Source: Candidatus Omnitrophota bacterium (GTDB lineage Bacteria > Omnitrophota > Gorgyraeia > Tantalellales > Tantalellaceae). Taken from it: 24,532 nucleotides of DNA. Both the position numbers and the translations under genes were made by a program. The stretch spans positions 1 through 24,532 of the forward strand of contig JAUWWB010000001.1 in assembly GCA_030617085.1 (NCBI GenBank), in the 5' to 3' direction. A model generated the notes under the pieces. The model ran no database searches, was not told the DNA's origin, and saw only the letters and a program-made list of their open reading frames with translations. Below are positions 38-22,476 of this stretch, piece after piece (within the stretch, counting starts at the first letter, position 1; every line of letters begins with the position of its first letter).

Positions 38-230
38 TTGTAATTTATAGTAATTCATAGTAATTTGTTGTAATTTGTTGTGATTTATCATACTTGTGGA
101 ATGGCTACGCCAATGAATTAGTACCAACTACTATCAATTACAATCAATTACCACAAATTATTGAAATTCCGTCACAATGAATTACTATCAATTACCATGA
201 ATTACTACAAATTACAATGAATTACCATAA
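38..230. repeat. AT-rich 10-nt periodic repeat element with inverted arms (copy 1)
   Basis: On +, TAA at 41, 51, 61, 71 and TGA at 81 (GTAATT-type units). The opposite arm has AATTA(C) units at 10-nt spacing over ~131-160 and 175-230. Lies just downstream of the thiL stop. Confidence 0.9.
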
Positions 231-246
231 GTCGCCACCTGACTCC

Positions 247-1143
247 TCACAAGTGCCTAAATCCCTCCATCCTCAACGCGCTGATGCGCCCCTCTTTGCC
301 TATCAGGGTCAGGCCGTCCTTTTTCGGCACTATCTCACCGATGACAAAGTACCGGGGCTCTTGCTTCCGCGACTTCACCTCCAGGAACAGCTTCCTCGCT
401 TCCTTTACCCCCATAGTGAACAATAGCTCAAAGCTTTCCCCGTAATAAAGGGCATCGTGAAGCGTCAGCGCCTTCGAAAGGGGGATAGCGCCCTCGTATA
501 GCCTGCATCCCACGCCGCTTTCGCGGCATACCCGGCCGATGTCCGGGGCGATCCCGTCCGAGACGTCTATCATCGAACTCACCTTGTAGCGCCCCGAAAG
601 GAACCGCGCCTCCTCCAGGCGCGGCGAAAAATCAAGATGTTCCTTTCTCCCGTTCCTGACGGGACCGGTAATCAACACAAGTTCTCCCTTTTTTGCGCCG
701 CTTCGTGTTATCAGTCTTTTCTTTTCCACAAATCCGATGACAGAAACATCGATCACCAGGGTGTCGGACCGGTTGGTATCGCCCCCCACGACCTTGATAT
801 CATATTCTTTACAGATGCCGAATATCCCGTCATAAATGCCCCGGATCGCGGCTTTTTTCGTCCCGGGAGGAACACCGATAGTCACCGTAATATATCCGGG
901 CACGCCCCCCATCGCGGCGACATCGCTGATATTGACCGCGACGGCCTTCCGCCCGACCCTCTTATACCCCGCCTGCCTGAGATAAAAATGCGTCCCCTCC
1001 ACAAGCATATCCGTGGCCCATAAAAGATAACGCTTCCCGTCATACTTGAGGACCGCGCAGTCGTCACCGATACCGGCAATAACGTCCTCCCCCGGACTCC
1101 CGGCGCGCTTTCTGATCTCGTCTATCAATTCTATCTCTCTCAT
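247..1143 (-). CDS. thiL: Thiamine-monophosphate kinase
   Basis: 298 aa. N-terminal E-x-x-L-I, GIGDDCAV, TDMLVEGTHF, NISDVAAMGG, VVGGDT, MIDVSDG and GESFELLFT match ThiL motifs. Confidence 0.95.
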   Translation of the reverse strand: MREIELIDEIRKRAGSPGEDVIAGIGDDCAVLKYDGKRYLLWATDMLVEGTHFYLRQAGYKRVGRKAVAVNISDVAAMGGVPGYITVTIGVPPGTKKAAIRGIYDGIFGICKEYDIKVVGGDTNRSDTLVIDVSVIGFVEKKRLITRSGAKKGELVLITGPVRNGRKEHLDFSPRLEEARFLSGRYKVSSMIDVSDGIAPDIGRVCRESGVGCRLYEGAIPLSKALTLHDALYYGESFELLFTMGVKEARKLFLEVKSRKQEPRYFVIGEIVPKKDGLTLIGKEGRISALRMEGFRHL

Positions 1144-1155
1144 GTACCGCCCCCA

Positions 1156-1231
1156 TTGTCATCCTGAGCGAAGCGAAGGATCTCTGGCGAGTCGACGTGG
1201 GAGAGATCCTTCGCTTCGCTCAGGATGACAA
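1156..1231. repeat. TGTC(CGTC-class)-tagged REP-like dimer with a 30-bp perfect inverted repeat (copy A)
   Basis: TTGTCATCCTGAGCGAAGCGAAGGATCTCT (1156-1185) and its exact reverse complement (1202-1231), with a 16-nt spacer. Each arm carries an internal ATCCT..AGGAT palindrome. Confidence 0.9.
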
Positions 1232-1294
1232 ACCGCGACAACTCACGGCCTGCACCAAGGGTTCGCTCCCTCGTTCAGAACAAGACACATGATC

Positions 1295-1329
1295 CCATCA
1301 ACCATCAACCATCCACTATCCACCCACCA
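1295..1329. repeat. 7-nt tandem repeat overlapping the mtnA stop codon
   Basis: CCATCAA CCATCAA CCATCCA CTATCCA CCCACCA. The CTA at 1316-1318 is the mtnA TAG. Confidence 0.8.
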
Positions 1330-20602: not shown

Positions 20603-20676
20603 TGTCATCCTGAGCGAAGCGAAGGATCTCTGCCAGCGCGACACCCCGGAGATCCTTCGCTTCGCTCAGGATGACA
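20603..20676. repeat. TGTC(CGTC-class)-tagged REP-like dimer with a 28-bp perfect inverted repeat (copy B)
   Basis: TGTCATCCTGAGCGAAGCGAAGGATCTC (20603-20630) and its exact reverse complement (20649-20676). Arms are identical to copy A; the 18-nt spacer differs. Confidence 0.9.
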
Positions 20677-20686
20677 ATTGGGGGTA

Positions 20687-20714
20687 GCCACTACGAACTA
20701 CGAACTACGAACTA
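20687..20714. repeat. TAGTTCG x3 + TAGTGGC heptads supplying the ilvE stop codon
   Basis: CTA at 20691, 20698, 20705 and 20712. The one at 20712-20714 is the ilvE TAG. Confidence 0.9.
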
Positions 20715-21584
20715 ATACTCAACCCCCTCAGCGCGCGTAAGCTCCCTGAAATCCTGGCGGAGCTGGCGGGTGATCTCGCCGGGTGAGCCGGAGGCGATCT
20801 GCTTTCCGTCTATCGCCACCACCGGTATGATCTCCGCCGCCGTCCCTGTCAGGAAGCATTCATCCGCTTCCAGAAGCTCATCGGGGAGCATCCTGCCGTA
20901 TTCGGTCTTAATACCCCTTTTCTGCGCCAGCTCGATGACGGCTTTCTGCGTTATGCCTTCGAGCGCGCCGAGATCGCTCGAAGGGGTGTAGAGCTTTCCG
21001 CCGCTAGCGATGAAAATGTTGTCCCCGGTGCACTCGACCGCGTATCCGTCGACCGAAAGCATGAGAGCTTCCTCGACCCCCGCGTCGATGGCCTCTATCT
21101 TCGCAAAGATATTATTCAAATAGTTCAGTGATTTTACCCGCGGGTTCATCGAAGCGGGGTGGTTGCGTTTCGTTTTCGCTATGACTATGGCCAGGCCGCT
21201 TTCGTAAAGCTCCCCGGGGTACAGGGCTATCTTATCGGTGATTATGAACACGGCCGGGGCCTTGCACTTGCGTGGGTCCAGCCCGAGATCGCCGGCTCCC
21301 CTTGTCACGACCGCGCGGATGTACGCGTTATCCAGGTCGTTCAGCCTGAGCGTTTCGACGATCTTATCATGAAAGGCCCCCTTCGTCATCGGCACCTCGA
21401 GCCTGATAGCCTCCGCGCTCGAATAGAGCCGGTCCAGATGCTCCTCAAGGCGGAACACCCTCCCGTTATACGCCCTTATACCCTCAAACACCCCGTCGCC
21501 GTAAAGGACCCCATGGTCAAAAATGGACACGCACGCGTTTTCGCTGTCAACAAATTCCCCGTTCAGAAAAACCTTACGCCCCAT
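20712..21584 (-). CDS. ilvE: Branched-chain amino acid aminotransferase (PLP class IV)
   Basis: DHGVLYGDGVFEGIRAY, RVKSLNYL (catalytic Lys), ECTGDNIF, LEGITQ and FLTGTAAEIIPV. Confidence 0.92.
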   Translation of the reverse strand: MGRKVFLNGEFVDSENACVSIFDHGVLYGDGVFEGIRAYNGRVFRLEEHLDRLYSSAEAIRLEVPMTKGAFHDKIVETLRLNDLDNAYIRAVVTRGAGDLGLDPRKCKAPAVFIITDKIALYPGELYESGLAIVIAKTKRNHPASMNPRVKSLNYLNNIFAKIEAIDAGVEEALMLSVDGYAVECTGDNIFIASGGKLYTPSSDLGALEGITQKAVIELAQKRGIKTEYGRMLPDELLEADECFLTGTAAEIIPVVAIDGKQIASGSPGEITRQLRQDFRELTRAEGVEY

Positions 21585-22263
21585 CTATTGTCCCTTCTTT
21601 TTGCAGCACCCCGTCTTCCATCACATGCTCGCTGTGAAAGAAGTCCCTGTCGACTTTGCGATGCGAGACTACTACGACGCTCATGGCGTTCTTTTCGCTG
21701 ATGTAGCGGATAAGCCTGTAAATTTCTTTGCTCATTTTCGAATCGAGATTGCCGGTCGGTTCGTCGCAGAATAAGACATCGGGCTCATTGACCAGCGCCC
21801 TCGCTATGGCCGTCCTCTGGGCCTCGCCTCCCGATAGCCGGGAGGGCCTGTGCCGCAGACGCCCGCCCATGCCCACGAATTCCAGAAGCCGCGCGGCGCG
21901 CGACCTCATGCCCCTGACCGGCTCTCCCTTTCTTATCATCGCCGGCAGCATCACGTTCTCCAGCACGCTCAGCTCGGGCAGGAGATGATAAAGCTGAAAA
22001 ACAAACCCAAAGTGCCGATTCCTGAGCCGGCTTCTTTTCCCGTCGCCAAGGCTGTATATATCTTTCCCCCGAAACAGCACCTCCCCCCCCGTAGGCCGGC
22101 TCAGCCCGCCGATCACATGCAGCAAAGTAGACTTCCCTGCCCCGGAAGGACCATGAATATATACGCGCTCCCCCTCACCGATCCGAAGATCCGCACCTTT
22201 AACCGCCCGGACAATGCCCCCCCCAAACCTGTATGTCTTATTAACGCCTTTAGCAATAATCAT
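21574..22263 (-). CDS. lolD: Lipoprotein-releasing system ABC ATPase LolD
   Basis: GPSGAGKSTLL, GFVFQLYHLLPELSVLENV, LSGGEAQRTAIARAL and DEPTGNLD. Follows lolC/E. Start set at ATG 22263. Confidence 0.88.
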   Translation of the reverse strand: MIIAKGVNKTYRFGGGIVRAVKGADLRIGEGERVYIHGPSGAGKSTLLHVIGGLSRPTGGEVLFRGKDIYSLGDGKRSRLRNRHFGFVFQLYHLLPELSVLENVMLPAMIRKGEPVRGMRSRAARLLEFVGMGGRLRHRPSRLSGGEAQRTAIARALVNEPDVLFCDEPTGNLDSKMSKEIYRLIRYISEKNAMSVVVVSHRKVDRDFFHSEHVMEDGVLQKEGTIDGA

Positions 22264-22269
22264 AAGCCA

Positions 22270-22476
22270 CAATAAATTACAACAAGCGTAATTTATAGTA
22301 ATTCGTTGTTATTTGTTGTTTGACGGAGTGCAGCCACGCCCAACCCACCAGCCAGTATCACAATGAATTGCCATAAATTACTACCAACTACTATCAATTA
22401 CGATCAATTACCATCAATTACAATCAATTATTGAAATTCCGTCACAATAAATTACCATGAATTACCATAAATCACC
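22270..22476. repeat. AT-rich 10-nt periodic repeat element with inverted arms (copy 3)
   Basis: GTAATT-type arm at ~22288-22320 and AATTAC units at 22361-22476. Shares exact 20-nt and 23-nt blocks with copy 1. Confidence 0.9.

What the first reader, a model, noticed from the sequence alone, without database searches (positions are those of the whole stretch)
38..22476. Family of three AT-rich decamer-repeat elements with inverted arms
Seen: 38-230, 12326-12492 and 22270-22476 each have a GTAATT arm and an AATTAC arm at an almost exact 10-nt period, separated by a variable core. Copies 1 and 3 are 22 kb apart and share TACCAACTACTATCAATTAC (122-141 / 22382-22401) and AATTATTGAAATTCCGTCACAAT (156-178 / 22426-22448), with a different number of units between these blocks. 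All three lie shortly after a stop codon (thiL, mlaD, lolC/E) and are far more AT-rich than the flanking genes. Inference: a non-autonomous element. A period of about one helical turn would put binding sites on one DNA face, and the mRNA could form a long multi-register hairpin. I do not recognise this repeat as a named family.
Basis: partly seen in the sequence, partly recalled or inferred. Interest (0 to 1): 0.8.

Follow-up and report, generated by a model that had tools for sequence, protein, structure and literature searches.

The report
Decamer-armed hairpin repeats between genes
The three sites are real copies of a family found at 23 or more places in this small Omnitrophota genome: gene-less hairpin inserts whose arms are runs of a 10-base word, and the same arms enclose a small 'rRNA intervening-sequence protein' gene in Bacteroidota, which ties them to the long-unexplained heptamer repeats of bacteria.

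Summary
Observation confirmed. All three sites hold a GTAATT-NRTD decamer array, a short core and an inverted AATTAC array. The two shared blocks are exact.

- **Family size:** 23 clusters, about 130 units, in this 1.08-Mb Omnitrophota MAG. All 10 strict two-armed copies run GTAATT arm first; none runs the other way.
- **Insertions, not artefacts:** the three nearest relatives keep the lolC-lolD junction at 7-26 nt, against 228 nt here. Independent assemblies from other samples carry element 2, one with exactly one unit (10 nt) missing.
- **Distribution:** the word was found in none of 400 other Omnitrophota genomes. It is common in Bacteroidota MAGs.
- **Link to a gene:** at four Bacteroidota-type loci the same arms bracket a PF05635 (23S-rRNA IVS protein, Avd-like) gene. 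These proteins form one clade.
- **Context:** a third of this genome's intergenic gaps hold analogous heptamer arrays, and one heptamer word also flanks a PF05635 gene here.

Best reading: gene-less miniatures of repeat-armed IVS-protein cassettes, a period-10 variant of STRR-like elements. They are probably selfish, and tolerated because the transcript folds back.

How they are copied is unknown. RNase III was not found in this assembly, and no RNA data exist.

This scan noted heptamer-armed versions before in other genomes. The decamer form, and its sharing of a word with heptamers, are new here.

The parts
40..89 (.). Element 1, left arm: five decamers (GTAATT-TATA, -CATA, -TGTT, -TGTT, then GTGATT-TATC)
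90..125 (.). Element 1, core. It is unique in the genome.
126..161 (.). Element 1, proximal right arm (AACTAC, AATTAC, AATTAC, AATTAT units). It includes the block 122-141 shared with element 3.
156..178 (.). Box AATTATTGAAATTCCGTCACAAT. It is identical at 22426-22448, and 22 of 23 bases match at contig C162:1537-1559.
176..229 (.). Element 1, distal right arm: five NNNN-AATTAC decamers. It ends 17-21 nt before the thiL stop codon (247-249, minus strand).
12326..12376 (.). Element 2, left arm: five units, the first 11 nt long. The unit at 12337-12346 is missing in the strain of run X2.
12377..12440 (.). Element 2, core (type C). Its first 34 nt are 88% identical to the core of the copy at contig C89:1850-1883.
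12441..12492 (.). Element 2, right arm: five NNNN-AATTAC decamers. It ends 12-14 nt before the mlaD stop codon (12505-12507, minus strand).
22275..22280 (.). Solitary AATTAC unit outside the left arm of element 3. It may be a remnant of a neighbouring or nested copy.
22288..22317 (.). Element 3, left arm, short and decayed: GTAATT-TATA, GTAATT-CGTT, GTTATT-TGTT
22305..22361 (-). Element 3, core of type A in reverse orientation. It is 84% identical to contig C115:1857-1914. The same core occurs at six loci of the genome.
22362..22476 (.). Element 3, right arm: about ten units interrupted by the 22426-22448 box. It ends 15 nt before the lolCE stop codon (22492-22494, minus strand).
22264..22491 (-). 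Whole lolCE-lolD spacer, 228 nt here. It is 7, 22 and 26 nt in the three nearest relatives, so the element is an insertion.
12299..12504 (-). Whole spacer (206 nt) between mlaD and the 361-aa ATPase-like gene (11213-12298), filled by element 2

Best explanation
The three sites are copies of a dispersed, non-coding, non-autonomous foldback element.

**Anatomy.** Each copy has three parts:
- an array of the decamer GTAATT-[T/G/C]-[A/G]-T-[A/T/G];
- a short core of one of a few types;
- the same array inverted.

**Class.** It is the period-10 member of the class of hairpin elements with short-tandem-repeat arms that fill a third of this Omnitrophota genome's intergenic gaps, mostly with 7-nt units. 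It is a gene-less miniature of cassettes in which the same arms enclose a PF05635 gene (23S-rRNA intervening-sequence protein, Avd-like four-helix bundle).

**Shown here.**
- It is a multi-copy family.
- The copies are insertions into otherwise tight stop-to-start junctions of conserved operons.
- The arms gain and lose whole units between strains.
- The same word flanks PF05635 genes of one protein clade in Bacteroidota.
- In this genome a heptamer word shows the same cassette-and-miniature pair.

**Inferred.**
- The lineage acquired the word horizontally, probably with a cassette from a Bacteroidota-like donor, and it then multiplied.
- The read-through transcript folds into an AU-rich hairpin that brings the upstream stop and the downstream start together, so operon expression survives.
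- The elements are selfish or neutral rather than host regulators.
- The copying step is unknown. The most likely reader of the arm word is the PF05635 protein.
For: **Family**
- 23 clusters, 132 units in runs.
- Core A occurs at six loci at 83-92% identity. Core C occurs at two loci. The 23-nt box occurs at three. By eye, C3 and C138 also share a core.
- Polarity is fixed: 10 pairs with the GTAATT arm first, 0 the other way.

**Insertion**
- Synteny lolC-lolD-ilvE-mcsA-mcsB-clpC is kept in the three nearest relatives (73-77% LolC identity). Their spacers are 7, 22 and 26 nt, against 228 nt here.

**Real and dynamic**
- Independent contigs from runs X1, X2 and X3 span element 2. X2 lacks exactly 10 nt at 12337.
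- Spacer variants are not mirrored between the two arms, and the arms show local 20-nt periodicity. This fits independent slippage in each arm.

**Link to cassettes**
- PF05635 ORFs (E 1e-24 to 1e-26) lie between GTAATT and AATTAC arrays in L038, L047, L062 and L174.
- In three MAGs holding 31 PF05635 genes, most are flanked by inverted arms of period 7, 8, 10, 11 or 16.
- All six proteins with GT[A/C]ATT arms of period 10-11 fall in one clade (support 100/98). None of the 15 proteins outside that clade has such arms.
- Within this genome, GGGACTG arms flank a PF05635 gene (C81) and also form gene-less hairpins at C12, C113 and C120.

**Lineage restriction**
- No three-unit run in 400 other Omnitrophota genomes.
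- 24 of 39 titled GTDB loci carrying the word are labelled Bacteroidota.

**Hairpin**
- RNA fold z-scores are -6.2, -5.3 and -2.1.
Against: - **No cognate gene here.** No PF05635 gene of the decamer-associated clade, and no remnant of one, is in this assembly. The assembly is 92.7% complete, and five decamer arrays sit at contig ends. The cassette link for GTAATT therefore rests on other phyla.
- **The clade link has a simpler reading.** Arms and gene may simply be inherited together. That would not show that the protein reads the arms.
- **No mechanism in sight.** No target-site duplication and no transposase link were found by eye or by search.
- **Not always a foldback.** About nine loci are one-armed arrays.
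- **RNase III not found.** This enzyme excises rRNA intervening sequences elsewhere. It was not found here, and in only 2 of 12 relatives.
- **No expression data.** No RNA run holds the region.
- **Low turnover.** Among strains about 98-99% alike the elements stay at the same sites, so transposition is not frequent.
Confidence: 0.65

Rival explanations
1. Host-serving RNA elements. The hairpins would be selected in the operon transcript as stabilisers, processing sites or translational-coupling devices, as is proposed for REP/BIME.
For: - The position is always between a stop codon and the next start codon.
- The folds are better than shuffles.
- The hairpin base would bring the stop and the start close together.
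Against: - G:U-compatible mismatches are not enriched on the sense strand: 32 against 38 (my tally).
- Core A occurs in both orientations relative to transcription, 4 against 2 (my reading).
- The arms are unequal in length and not mirrored.
- The same operons in relatives work with 7-26-nt junctions and no element.
- No terminator-like or promoter-like enrichment.
- RNase III was not found.
Confidence: 0.12
2. DNA-level protein-binding arrays. Each decamer would be a site for a host DNA-binding or nucleoid protein, placed once per helical turn, as with iterons or centromere-like arrays. The AATT phasing would also curve the DNA.
For: - The hexamer GTAATT is invariant while the spacer varies, at an exact 10-nt period.
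- The same word is kept across phyla.
- One-armed arrays exist.
Against: - There are 23 dispersed loci inside operon junctions, not one locus next to partition or replication genes.
- The phase between the arms is not conserved (my arithmetic on the positions).
- The word is absent from 400 related genomes with the same housekeeping genes.
- No candidate host protein was found.
Confidence: 0.12
3. Local microsatellites. Each array would have arisen in place by polymerase slippage, without any copying between loci.
For: - Whole-unit length differences occur between strains.
- A new 7-nt duplication lies at the flank of element 3 in run X3.
- Slippage has been proposed to explain the excess of heptamer repeats in bacteria (PMC4692102).
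Against: - The same 10-nt word, with the same polarity, occurs at 23 loci.
- Non-repetitive cores and a 23-nt box are shared between loci at 83-100% identity.
- The same word is found with PF05635 genes in another phylum.
Confidence: 0.04
4. Assembly artefact or chance low complexity.
For: - The source is a fragmented MAG of 172 contigs.
- Some arrays lie at contig ends.
Against: - Contigs assembled independently from four runs of different studies cover the elements, and long ones span elements 2 and 3.
- There are 28 hits against 0.08 expected by chance.
Confidence: 0.01

Closest known systems
ORF-bearing intervening sequences (IVS) of 23S rRNA (Coxiella burnetii, Leptospira; S23p = PF05635)
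   Same: Both have terminal inverted repeats that fold into a stem. The Coxiella IVS carries tandem short (heptamer) repeats whose number varies between strains (PMC4990558). The gene in the larger relatives of the present arms is the same family, PF05635.
   Different: - The window's copies carry no gene.
- They lie between protein-coding genes, not in 23S rRNA.
- The unit is 10 nt, not 7.
- RNase III, which excises the rRNA IVS (PMC4990558), was not found in this genome.
STRR and other heptamer repeats: Calothrix/Nostoc STRR, GGGAATC/GGGGAYT of Xanthomonas and Nostoc (PMC4692102), TAACTGA of Beggiatoaceae, cyanobacteria and Bacteroidetes (PMC4679880)
   Same: - All are short tandem units found in many intergenic gaps.
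- They lie close to the end of the upstream gene.
- Their length varies between close strains.
- Their phylogenetic distribution is patchy, which suggests horizontal transfer.
- Their function is unexplained.
- This genome itself carries 241 intergenic period-7 arrays, including TAACTGA and GGGACTG.
   Different: The period here is 10, not 7, and the word is AT-rich. A link is that a Bacteroidota PF05635 gene of the same clade is flanked by the heptamer TTGGTCA, which reads as GTCATT plus one base. So the decamer and the heptamer share a hexamer word and differ in spacer length. From memory, unverified: TTGGTCA is one of the Calothrix STRR units.
MITEs (miniature inverted-repeat transposable elements)
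   Same: Both are small (about 120-210 bp), non-coding and multi-copy, with inverted ends, and both insert between genes of an operon without breaking them. A larger relative with an ORF exists.
   Different: - No target-site duplication was recognised.
- The ends are arrays of variable unit number, not fixed terminal repeats.
- The ORF of the larger relative is not a known transposase.
REP / BIME / REPIN elements with RAYT transposases
   Same: Both are extragenic palindromic repeats lying after stop codons, built as mosaics of a few modules and present in many copies.
   Different: There is no REP-type 20-40-nt palindrome. The two Y1-transposase-like genes of this genome (contigs C121 and C152) are not flanked by GTAATT units; C152 is flanked by another hairpin.

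Membership tests
Repeat-armed PF05635 (IVS-protein) cassettes, gene-less derivative | Two inverted arms made of tandem short units around a core | tested here: met
   10 two-armed copies with three or more exact units per arm
Repeat-armed PF05635 (IVS-protein) cassettes, gene-less derivative | The same arm word brackets a PF05635 gene somewhere | tested here: met
   L038, L047, L062 and L174, Pfam E 1e-24 to 1e-26. These are in Bacteroidota-type contigs only, not in this genome.
Repeat-armed PF05635 (IVS-protein) cassettes, gene-less derivative | A PF05635 ORF between the arms | tested here: not met
   The cores are 30-100 nt and hold no ORF. No remnant of the clade was found by tblastn or hmmsearch. 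The elements are therefore filed as a derivative, not as a cassette.
23S rRNA intervening sequence (IVS) | Inserted in helix 25 or 45 of 23S rRNA and excised by RNase III | tested here: not met
   The elements lie between protein-coding genes. RNase III models found nothing in this genome.
STRR (short tandemly repeated repetitive sequences) | Heptanucleotide unit | tested here: not met
   The period is 10, occasionally 11.
STRR (short tandemly repeated repetitive sequences) | Tandem arrays dispersed over many intergenic regions | tested here: met
MITE | Target-site duplication at both ends | tested here: inconclusive
   The flanks of 13 copies were inspected by eye and showed no common duplication. 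The array ends blur the boundaries.
MITE | A parent element that encodes a transposase and has the same ends | tested here: not met
   The larger relatives encode PF05635, not a transposase.
REP / REPIN-RAYT | A RAYT (Y1 transposase) gene flanked by the repeat | tested here: not met
   The Y1_Tnp hits at contigs C121 and C152 have no GTAATT units beside them.
Iteron or centromere-like binding arrays | One locus, or very few, next to replication or partition genes | tested here: not met
   There are 23 loci in housekeeping operons.
Intrinsic terminator | A G+C-rich stem followed by a run of U | tested here: not met
   No such site lies on the sense strand within the elements. The stems are AU-rich.

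The most novel reading that the evidence does not exclude
The arm word is a recognition code. A particular clade of PF05635/Avd-like pentamers would read the hexamer GT[A/C]ATT in arrays whose period (7, 10 or 11) is set only by the spacer, and would maintain or mobilise those arrays. Under this reading the classical heptamer STRR repeats, the rRNA intervening sequences and these decamer hairpins are one system with matched protein-word pairs. The Omnitrophota copies would be orphans left by a cassette acquired from a Bacteroidota-like donor.
Probability: 0.3. Interest if true: 0.8.

Novelty: new variant of a known kind. Interest (0 to 1): 0.6.

Why it matters
Short tandem heptamer repeats between bacterial genes have been known since 1990 and still have no accepted origin or function. 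The small 'IVS proteins' are likewise orphans.

This locus adds three things:
- a 10-nt version of the same architecture;
- direct evidence that one arm word travels with one clade of PF05635 genes across genomes, and appears gene-less in a different phylum;
- a hint that heptamer and decamer arrays share a hexamer word and differ only in spacer.

That turns a descriptive puzzle into a testable pairing of a purified protein with a defined DNA or RNA array.

It also matters for annotation. A third of the intergenic gaps of this reduced genome consist of such inserts, and they break metagenome assemblies.

Tried and rejected
- **Rfam.** At gathering threshold there was no match in the window.
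- **Three-unit pattern in GTDB contigs.** The first hits looked like chance single matches. Re-reading them with a spacer filter showed many true arrays.
- **Four-unit pattern in metagenome and viral contigs.** Most hits were unrelated satellites of AT-rich or eukaryote-like DNA. Only L141, L174 and L180 had the element's architecture.
- **Exact look-up of IlvE.** It was meant to find sister strains and found nothing on record.
- **Preference for co-directional gene pairs.** 17 of 18 looked striking but is the genome's baseline: 94.6% of all gene pairs and 91% of gaps of 100 nt or more are co-directional (p = 0.53).
- **RNA-level selection.** G:U against A:C asymmetry on the sense strand showed no bias. 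The difference in fold energy between strands follows the orientation of the core, not the direction of the genes.
- **Mirror symmetry of spacer variants between arms.** Absent.
- **Cores shared with heptamer-armed elements.** None; the cores occur only with decamer arms.
- **Remnant of a decamer-clade PF05635 gene in this genome.** None.
- **Reverse transcriptase, which would be the partner of an Avd-like protein.** None found.
- **RNase III.** Not found.
- **RNA runs holding the region.** None listed.
Only the CGTA spacers of element 2 fit it, and most spacers are TATA, GATA, TGTT or GATG. It stays a possibility, not a finding.
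Full report
**1. The observation**

The three regions read as described. Each has three parts:
- a run of GTAATT followed by four variable bases, at an exact 10-nt period (one unit is 11 nt);
- a non-repetitive core;
- a run of the complementary unit, NNNN-AATTAC.

The two-unit pattern occurs 28 times in the window, all inside the three regions, against 0.08 expected from shuffles. 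The two blocks shared by copies 1 and 3 are identical. GC is 26-34%, against 52-60% around them.

Each element starts 12-21 nt after a stop codon and ends shortly before the next start of the same strand.

**2. The family in this genome**

The window is contig C46 of a 1.08-Mb assembly of 172 contigs, 54% GC and 92.7% complete. The best named match of its LolC, at 77% identity, is 'Candidatus Makaraimicrobium thalassicum', and the following named hits are nearly all Omnitrophota.

GTAATT/AATTAC units form 23 clusters on 20 contigs, with 132 units in runs of three or more.
- Thirteen clusters are two-armed. About nine are one-armed or carry small G+C-rich mini-hairpins between units. Five lie at contig ends.
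- In all 10 pairs with three or more exact units per arm, the GTAATT arm comes first. None has the opposite order.
- The unit consensus is GTAATT-[T/G/C]-[A/G]-T-[A/T/G].

The cores fall into a few types shared between loci:
- type A at six loci, including window copy 3, at 83-92% identity;
- type B at C3 and C138, similar by eye;
- type C in window copy 2 and C89;
- a 23-nt box in copies 1 and 3 and in C162.

These cores occur only together with decamer arms. Whole elements have therefore been copied between loci.

**3. Insertions, not artefacts**

The three nearest relatives found (73-77% LolC identity) keep the gene order lolC-lolD-ilvE-mcsA-mcsB-clpC. Their lolC-lolD spacers are 7, 22 and 26 nt and hold no repeat, against 228 nt here.

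Contigs assembled independently from four public runs of different studies were laid on the window.
- In the probable source sample (X1), single contigs span elements 2 and 3 without gaps.
- In X2, a contig spans element 2 and lacks exactly 10 nt at 12337, which is one unit.
- In X3, a contig covers element 2 up to 12460. Another shows a new 7-nt tandem duplication (ACCCGTC) at the flank of element 3.

The elements are therefore real, sit at the same sites in strains roughly 98-99% alike, and change by whole units.

**4. How the arms behave**

The sense transcripts are predicted to fold into long AU-rich hairpins, with z-scores of -6.2, -5.3 and -2.1.
- In register, the arms are 69-83% Watson-Crick complementary in the 12 copies with a long stem. 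This comes mainly from the invariant part of the unit.
- The variable spacers are not mirrored between the two arms.
- Single arms show local 20-nt periodicity, such as GATG-GATA-GATG-GATA.
- The arms are often unequal, for example 8 units against 4.

This fits independent slippage in each arm. It does not fit selection for an exact stem.

Mismatches that would be G:U on the sense RNA are not enriched: 32 against 38 (my tally). Core A occurs in both orientations relative to the genes. Promoter-like and terminator-like sites are no more frequent than in shuffles.

Seventeen of 18 placeable copies lie between co-directional genes. But 94.6% of all gene pairs in this genome are co-directional, so this shows no preference.

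**5. Context in the same genome**

Tandem Repeats Finder reports 241 intergenic arrays of period 7, plus arrays of period 14 and 21, against about 45 of period 10. Of 515 gaps of 30 nt or more, 172 hold a period-7 array and 20 hold a GTAATT array. Many heptamer arrays are also arranged as inverted arms, for example window 4930-5058 and 7440-7573.

Earlier notes of this scan, which are AI notes and unchecked, linked heptamer-armed hairpins in other phyla to cassettes carrying a PF05635 gene. I tested that lead here.
- The genome has two PF05635 genes.
- The one at C81:6816-7130 lies between inverted GGGACTG/CAGTCCC arms.
- The same word forms gene-less hairpins at C12, C113 and C120.

So the relation between cassette and miniature holds within this genome for a heptamer word.

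**6. The decamer word elsewhere**

No three-unit GTAATT run was found in 40 relatives or in 400 other Omnitrophota genomes of 282 genera.

The word is frequent in other bacteria.
- Of 39 GTDB loci that pass a spacer filter and have a shown title, 24 are labelled Bacteroidota.
- Two-armed gene-less copies with G+C mini-hairpins between units occur in metagenome contigs of 36-41% GC (L141, L180).
- One of these contigs is Bacteroidota-like by protein features. This is a lead only.

At four loci the arms enclose an ORF that Pfam assigns to PF05635, with E values of 1e-24 to 1e-26: L038:4639-4992, L047:665-1030, L062:594-965 and L174:390-752. A fifth, L038:7259-7627, lies between GTCATT decamers.

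In the three MAGs concerned, 31 PF05635 genes were found. Most are bracketed by inverted tandem arms of period 7, 8, 10, 11 or 16.

I built a maximum-likelihood tree of the 24 near-full-length proteins, leaving out partial ones.
- All six proteins with GT[A/C]ATT arms of period 10-11 fall in one clade (support 100/98 for the 9-row clade).
- That clade also holds a gene flanked by the heptamer TTGGTCA, which read in another register is GTCATT plus G, and two genes with other arms of period 8 to 16 (L319, L321).
- None of the 15 proteins outside the clade has such arms.
- Each MAG has members inside and outside the clade, so this is not an effect of the genome.

Relatives share labels, however. 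Co-inheritance of gene and arms would give the same picture as protein-word recognition.

No gene or remnant of this clade is present in the Omnitrophota assembly.

**7. Mechanism**

Shown:
- dispersed copies with shared cores;
- insertion into tight operon junctions;
- gain and loss of whole units;
- the same arms around PF05635 genes elsewhere.

Inferred:
- The word entered this lineage horizontally and multiplied as gene-less foldbacks.
- Transcription reads through, and the hairpin brings the upstream stop and the downstream start together, which would explain why essential operons tolerate the inserts.
- The elements are selfish or neutral.

For rRNA intervening sequences the hairpin is cut out by RNase III (PMC4990558). 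That step cannot be assumed here, because RNase III models found nothing in this genome and matched only 2 of 12 relatives.

PF05635 resembles Avd, the nucleic-acid-binding accessory protein of diversity-generating retroelements (PMC10053308). No reverse transcriptase was found here.

The copying step remains unknown.

**8. Comparison and novelty**

The closest known things are:
- the ORF-bearing rRNA intervening sequences, which in Coxiella carry strain-variable tandem heptamers (PMC4990558);
- the heptamer repeats of cyanobacteria, Xanthomonas and Beggiatoaceae (PMC4692102, PMC4679880);
- MITEs;
- REP/BIME elements.

The present family fails a defining feature of each: it has no ORF, it is not in rRNA, its unit is not 7 nt, it shows no target-site duplication or transposase, and it has no RAYT link. 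I file it as a new variant, a period-10, gene-less derivative of repeat-armed PF05635 cassettes.

No paper in the searched library prints these decamer strings.

The scan had already noted heptamer-armed versions in other genomes. New here are the decamer form, its cross-phylum occurrence, and the hexamer word it shares with a heptamer array.

Noticed in passing
window 4930-5058, 7440-7573, 1295-1324, 11192-11221, 20691-20714: Heptamer arrays fill other spacers of the window. Some form inverted arms (AGGTTAT/ATAACCT and AAAATCA/TGATTTT). Others are plain runs (TAGTTCG, GGTTGAT). Genome-wide there are 241 intergenic period-7 arrays.
   Followed up: partly
window about 2366-2422, 3519-3576, 11140-11175: A G+C-rich REP-like hairpin, TGTAGGGGCAGGCCCCTGTGCCTGCCC, recurs in three spacers of the window and on many other contigs. 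It shows up as the 11-nt TRF hits CCCTGTGCCTG.
   Followed up: no
window 1144-1315 and 20502-20711: A long hairpin, GTCATCCTGAGCGAAGCGAAGGATCTC ... GAGATCCTTCGCTTCGCTCAGGATGAC, occurs in two spacers. In run X2 a contig skips 117 nt (20568-20686), so the second copy is a presence/absence polymorphism between strains.
   Followed up: partly
window 22477 (run X3) and 12337 (run X2): There are strain differences of exactly one repeat unit. One is a 7-nt tandem duplication, ACCCGTC, beside element 3. The other is a 10-nt deletion inside the left arm of element 2.
   Followed up: yes
own genome, contigs C5:2194-2276, C37:8049-8130, C124:5-76, C34, C59, C68: These are one-armed decamer arrays in which 16-22-nt G+C-rich mini-hairpins replace the 4-nt spacer, for example GTAATT-tatacgcctggggcgaggcggg-GTAATT. 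The Bacteroidota-type arrays carry similar inserts (tggccctgcgggcc, tgagctaaagctc). From memory, this recalls the 'small dispersed repeats' nested in cyanobacterial heptamer arrays.
   Followed up: partly
own genome, 12 arrays (for example C41:7853-7938, C20:912-948): Arrays of the heptamer TAACTGA occur here. This is the word described as abundant in Beggiatoaceae, cyanobacteria and Bacteroidetes (PMC4679880), now seen in an Omnitrophota genome.
   Followed up: no
own genome and 12 relatives: RNase III (TIGR02191, PF14622) was not found in this assembly, and was found in only 2 of 12 related genomes. That is unusual for bacteria and bears on how long hairpins in transcripts are handled.
   Followed up: partly
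own genome C132:15269-15361, C25:346-375, C3:3310-3339, C58:744-764, C75:1468-1509: A second, smaller family of 10-11-nt tandem units exists, with the word AACGCGGAT(N).
   Followed up: no
own genome C121:3400-4100 and C152:300-1250: C121 carries an IS605-type pair: a Y1 transposase, followed by what reads like the start of a TnpB gene (by eye, not searched). C152 carries a 363-aa Y1-like protein preceded by a perfect hairpin, GGGGTCAGGTCTTGAATTTTG...CAAAATTCAAGACCTGACCCC. Neither is linked to the decamers.
   Followed up: partly
window 9550-9583 (cysS): Runs X2 and X3 carry a 24-nt in-frame deletion relative to the window, at 9550 and 9559 respectively.
   Followed up: no
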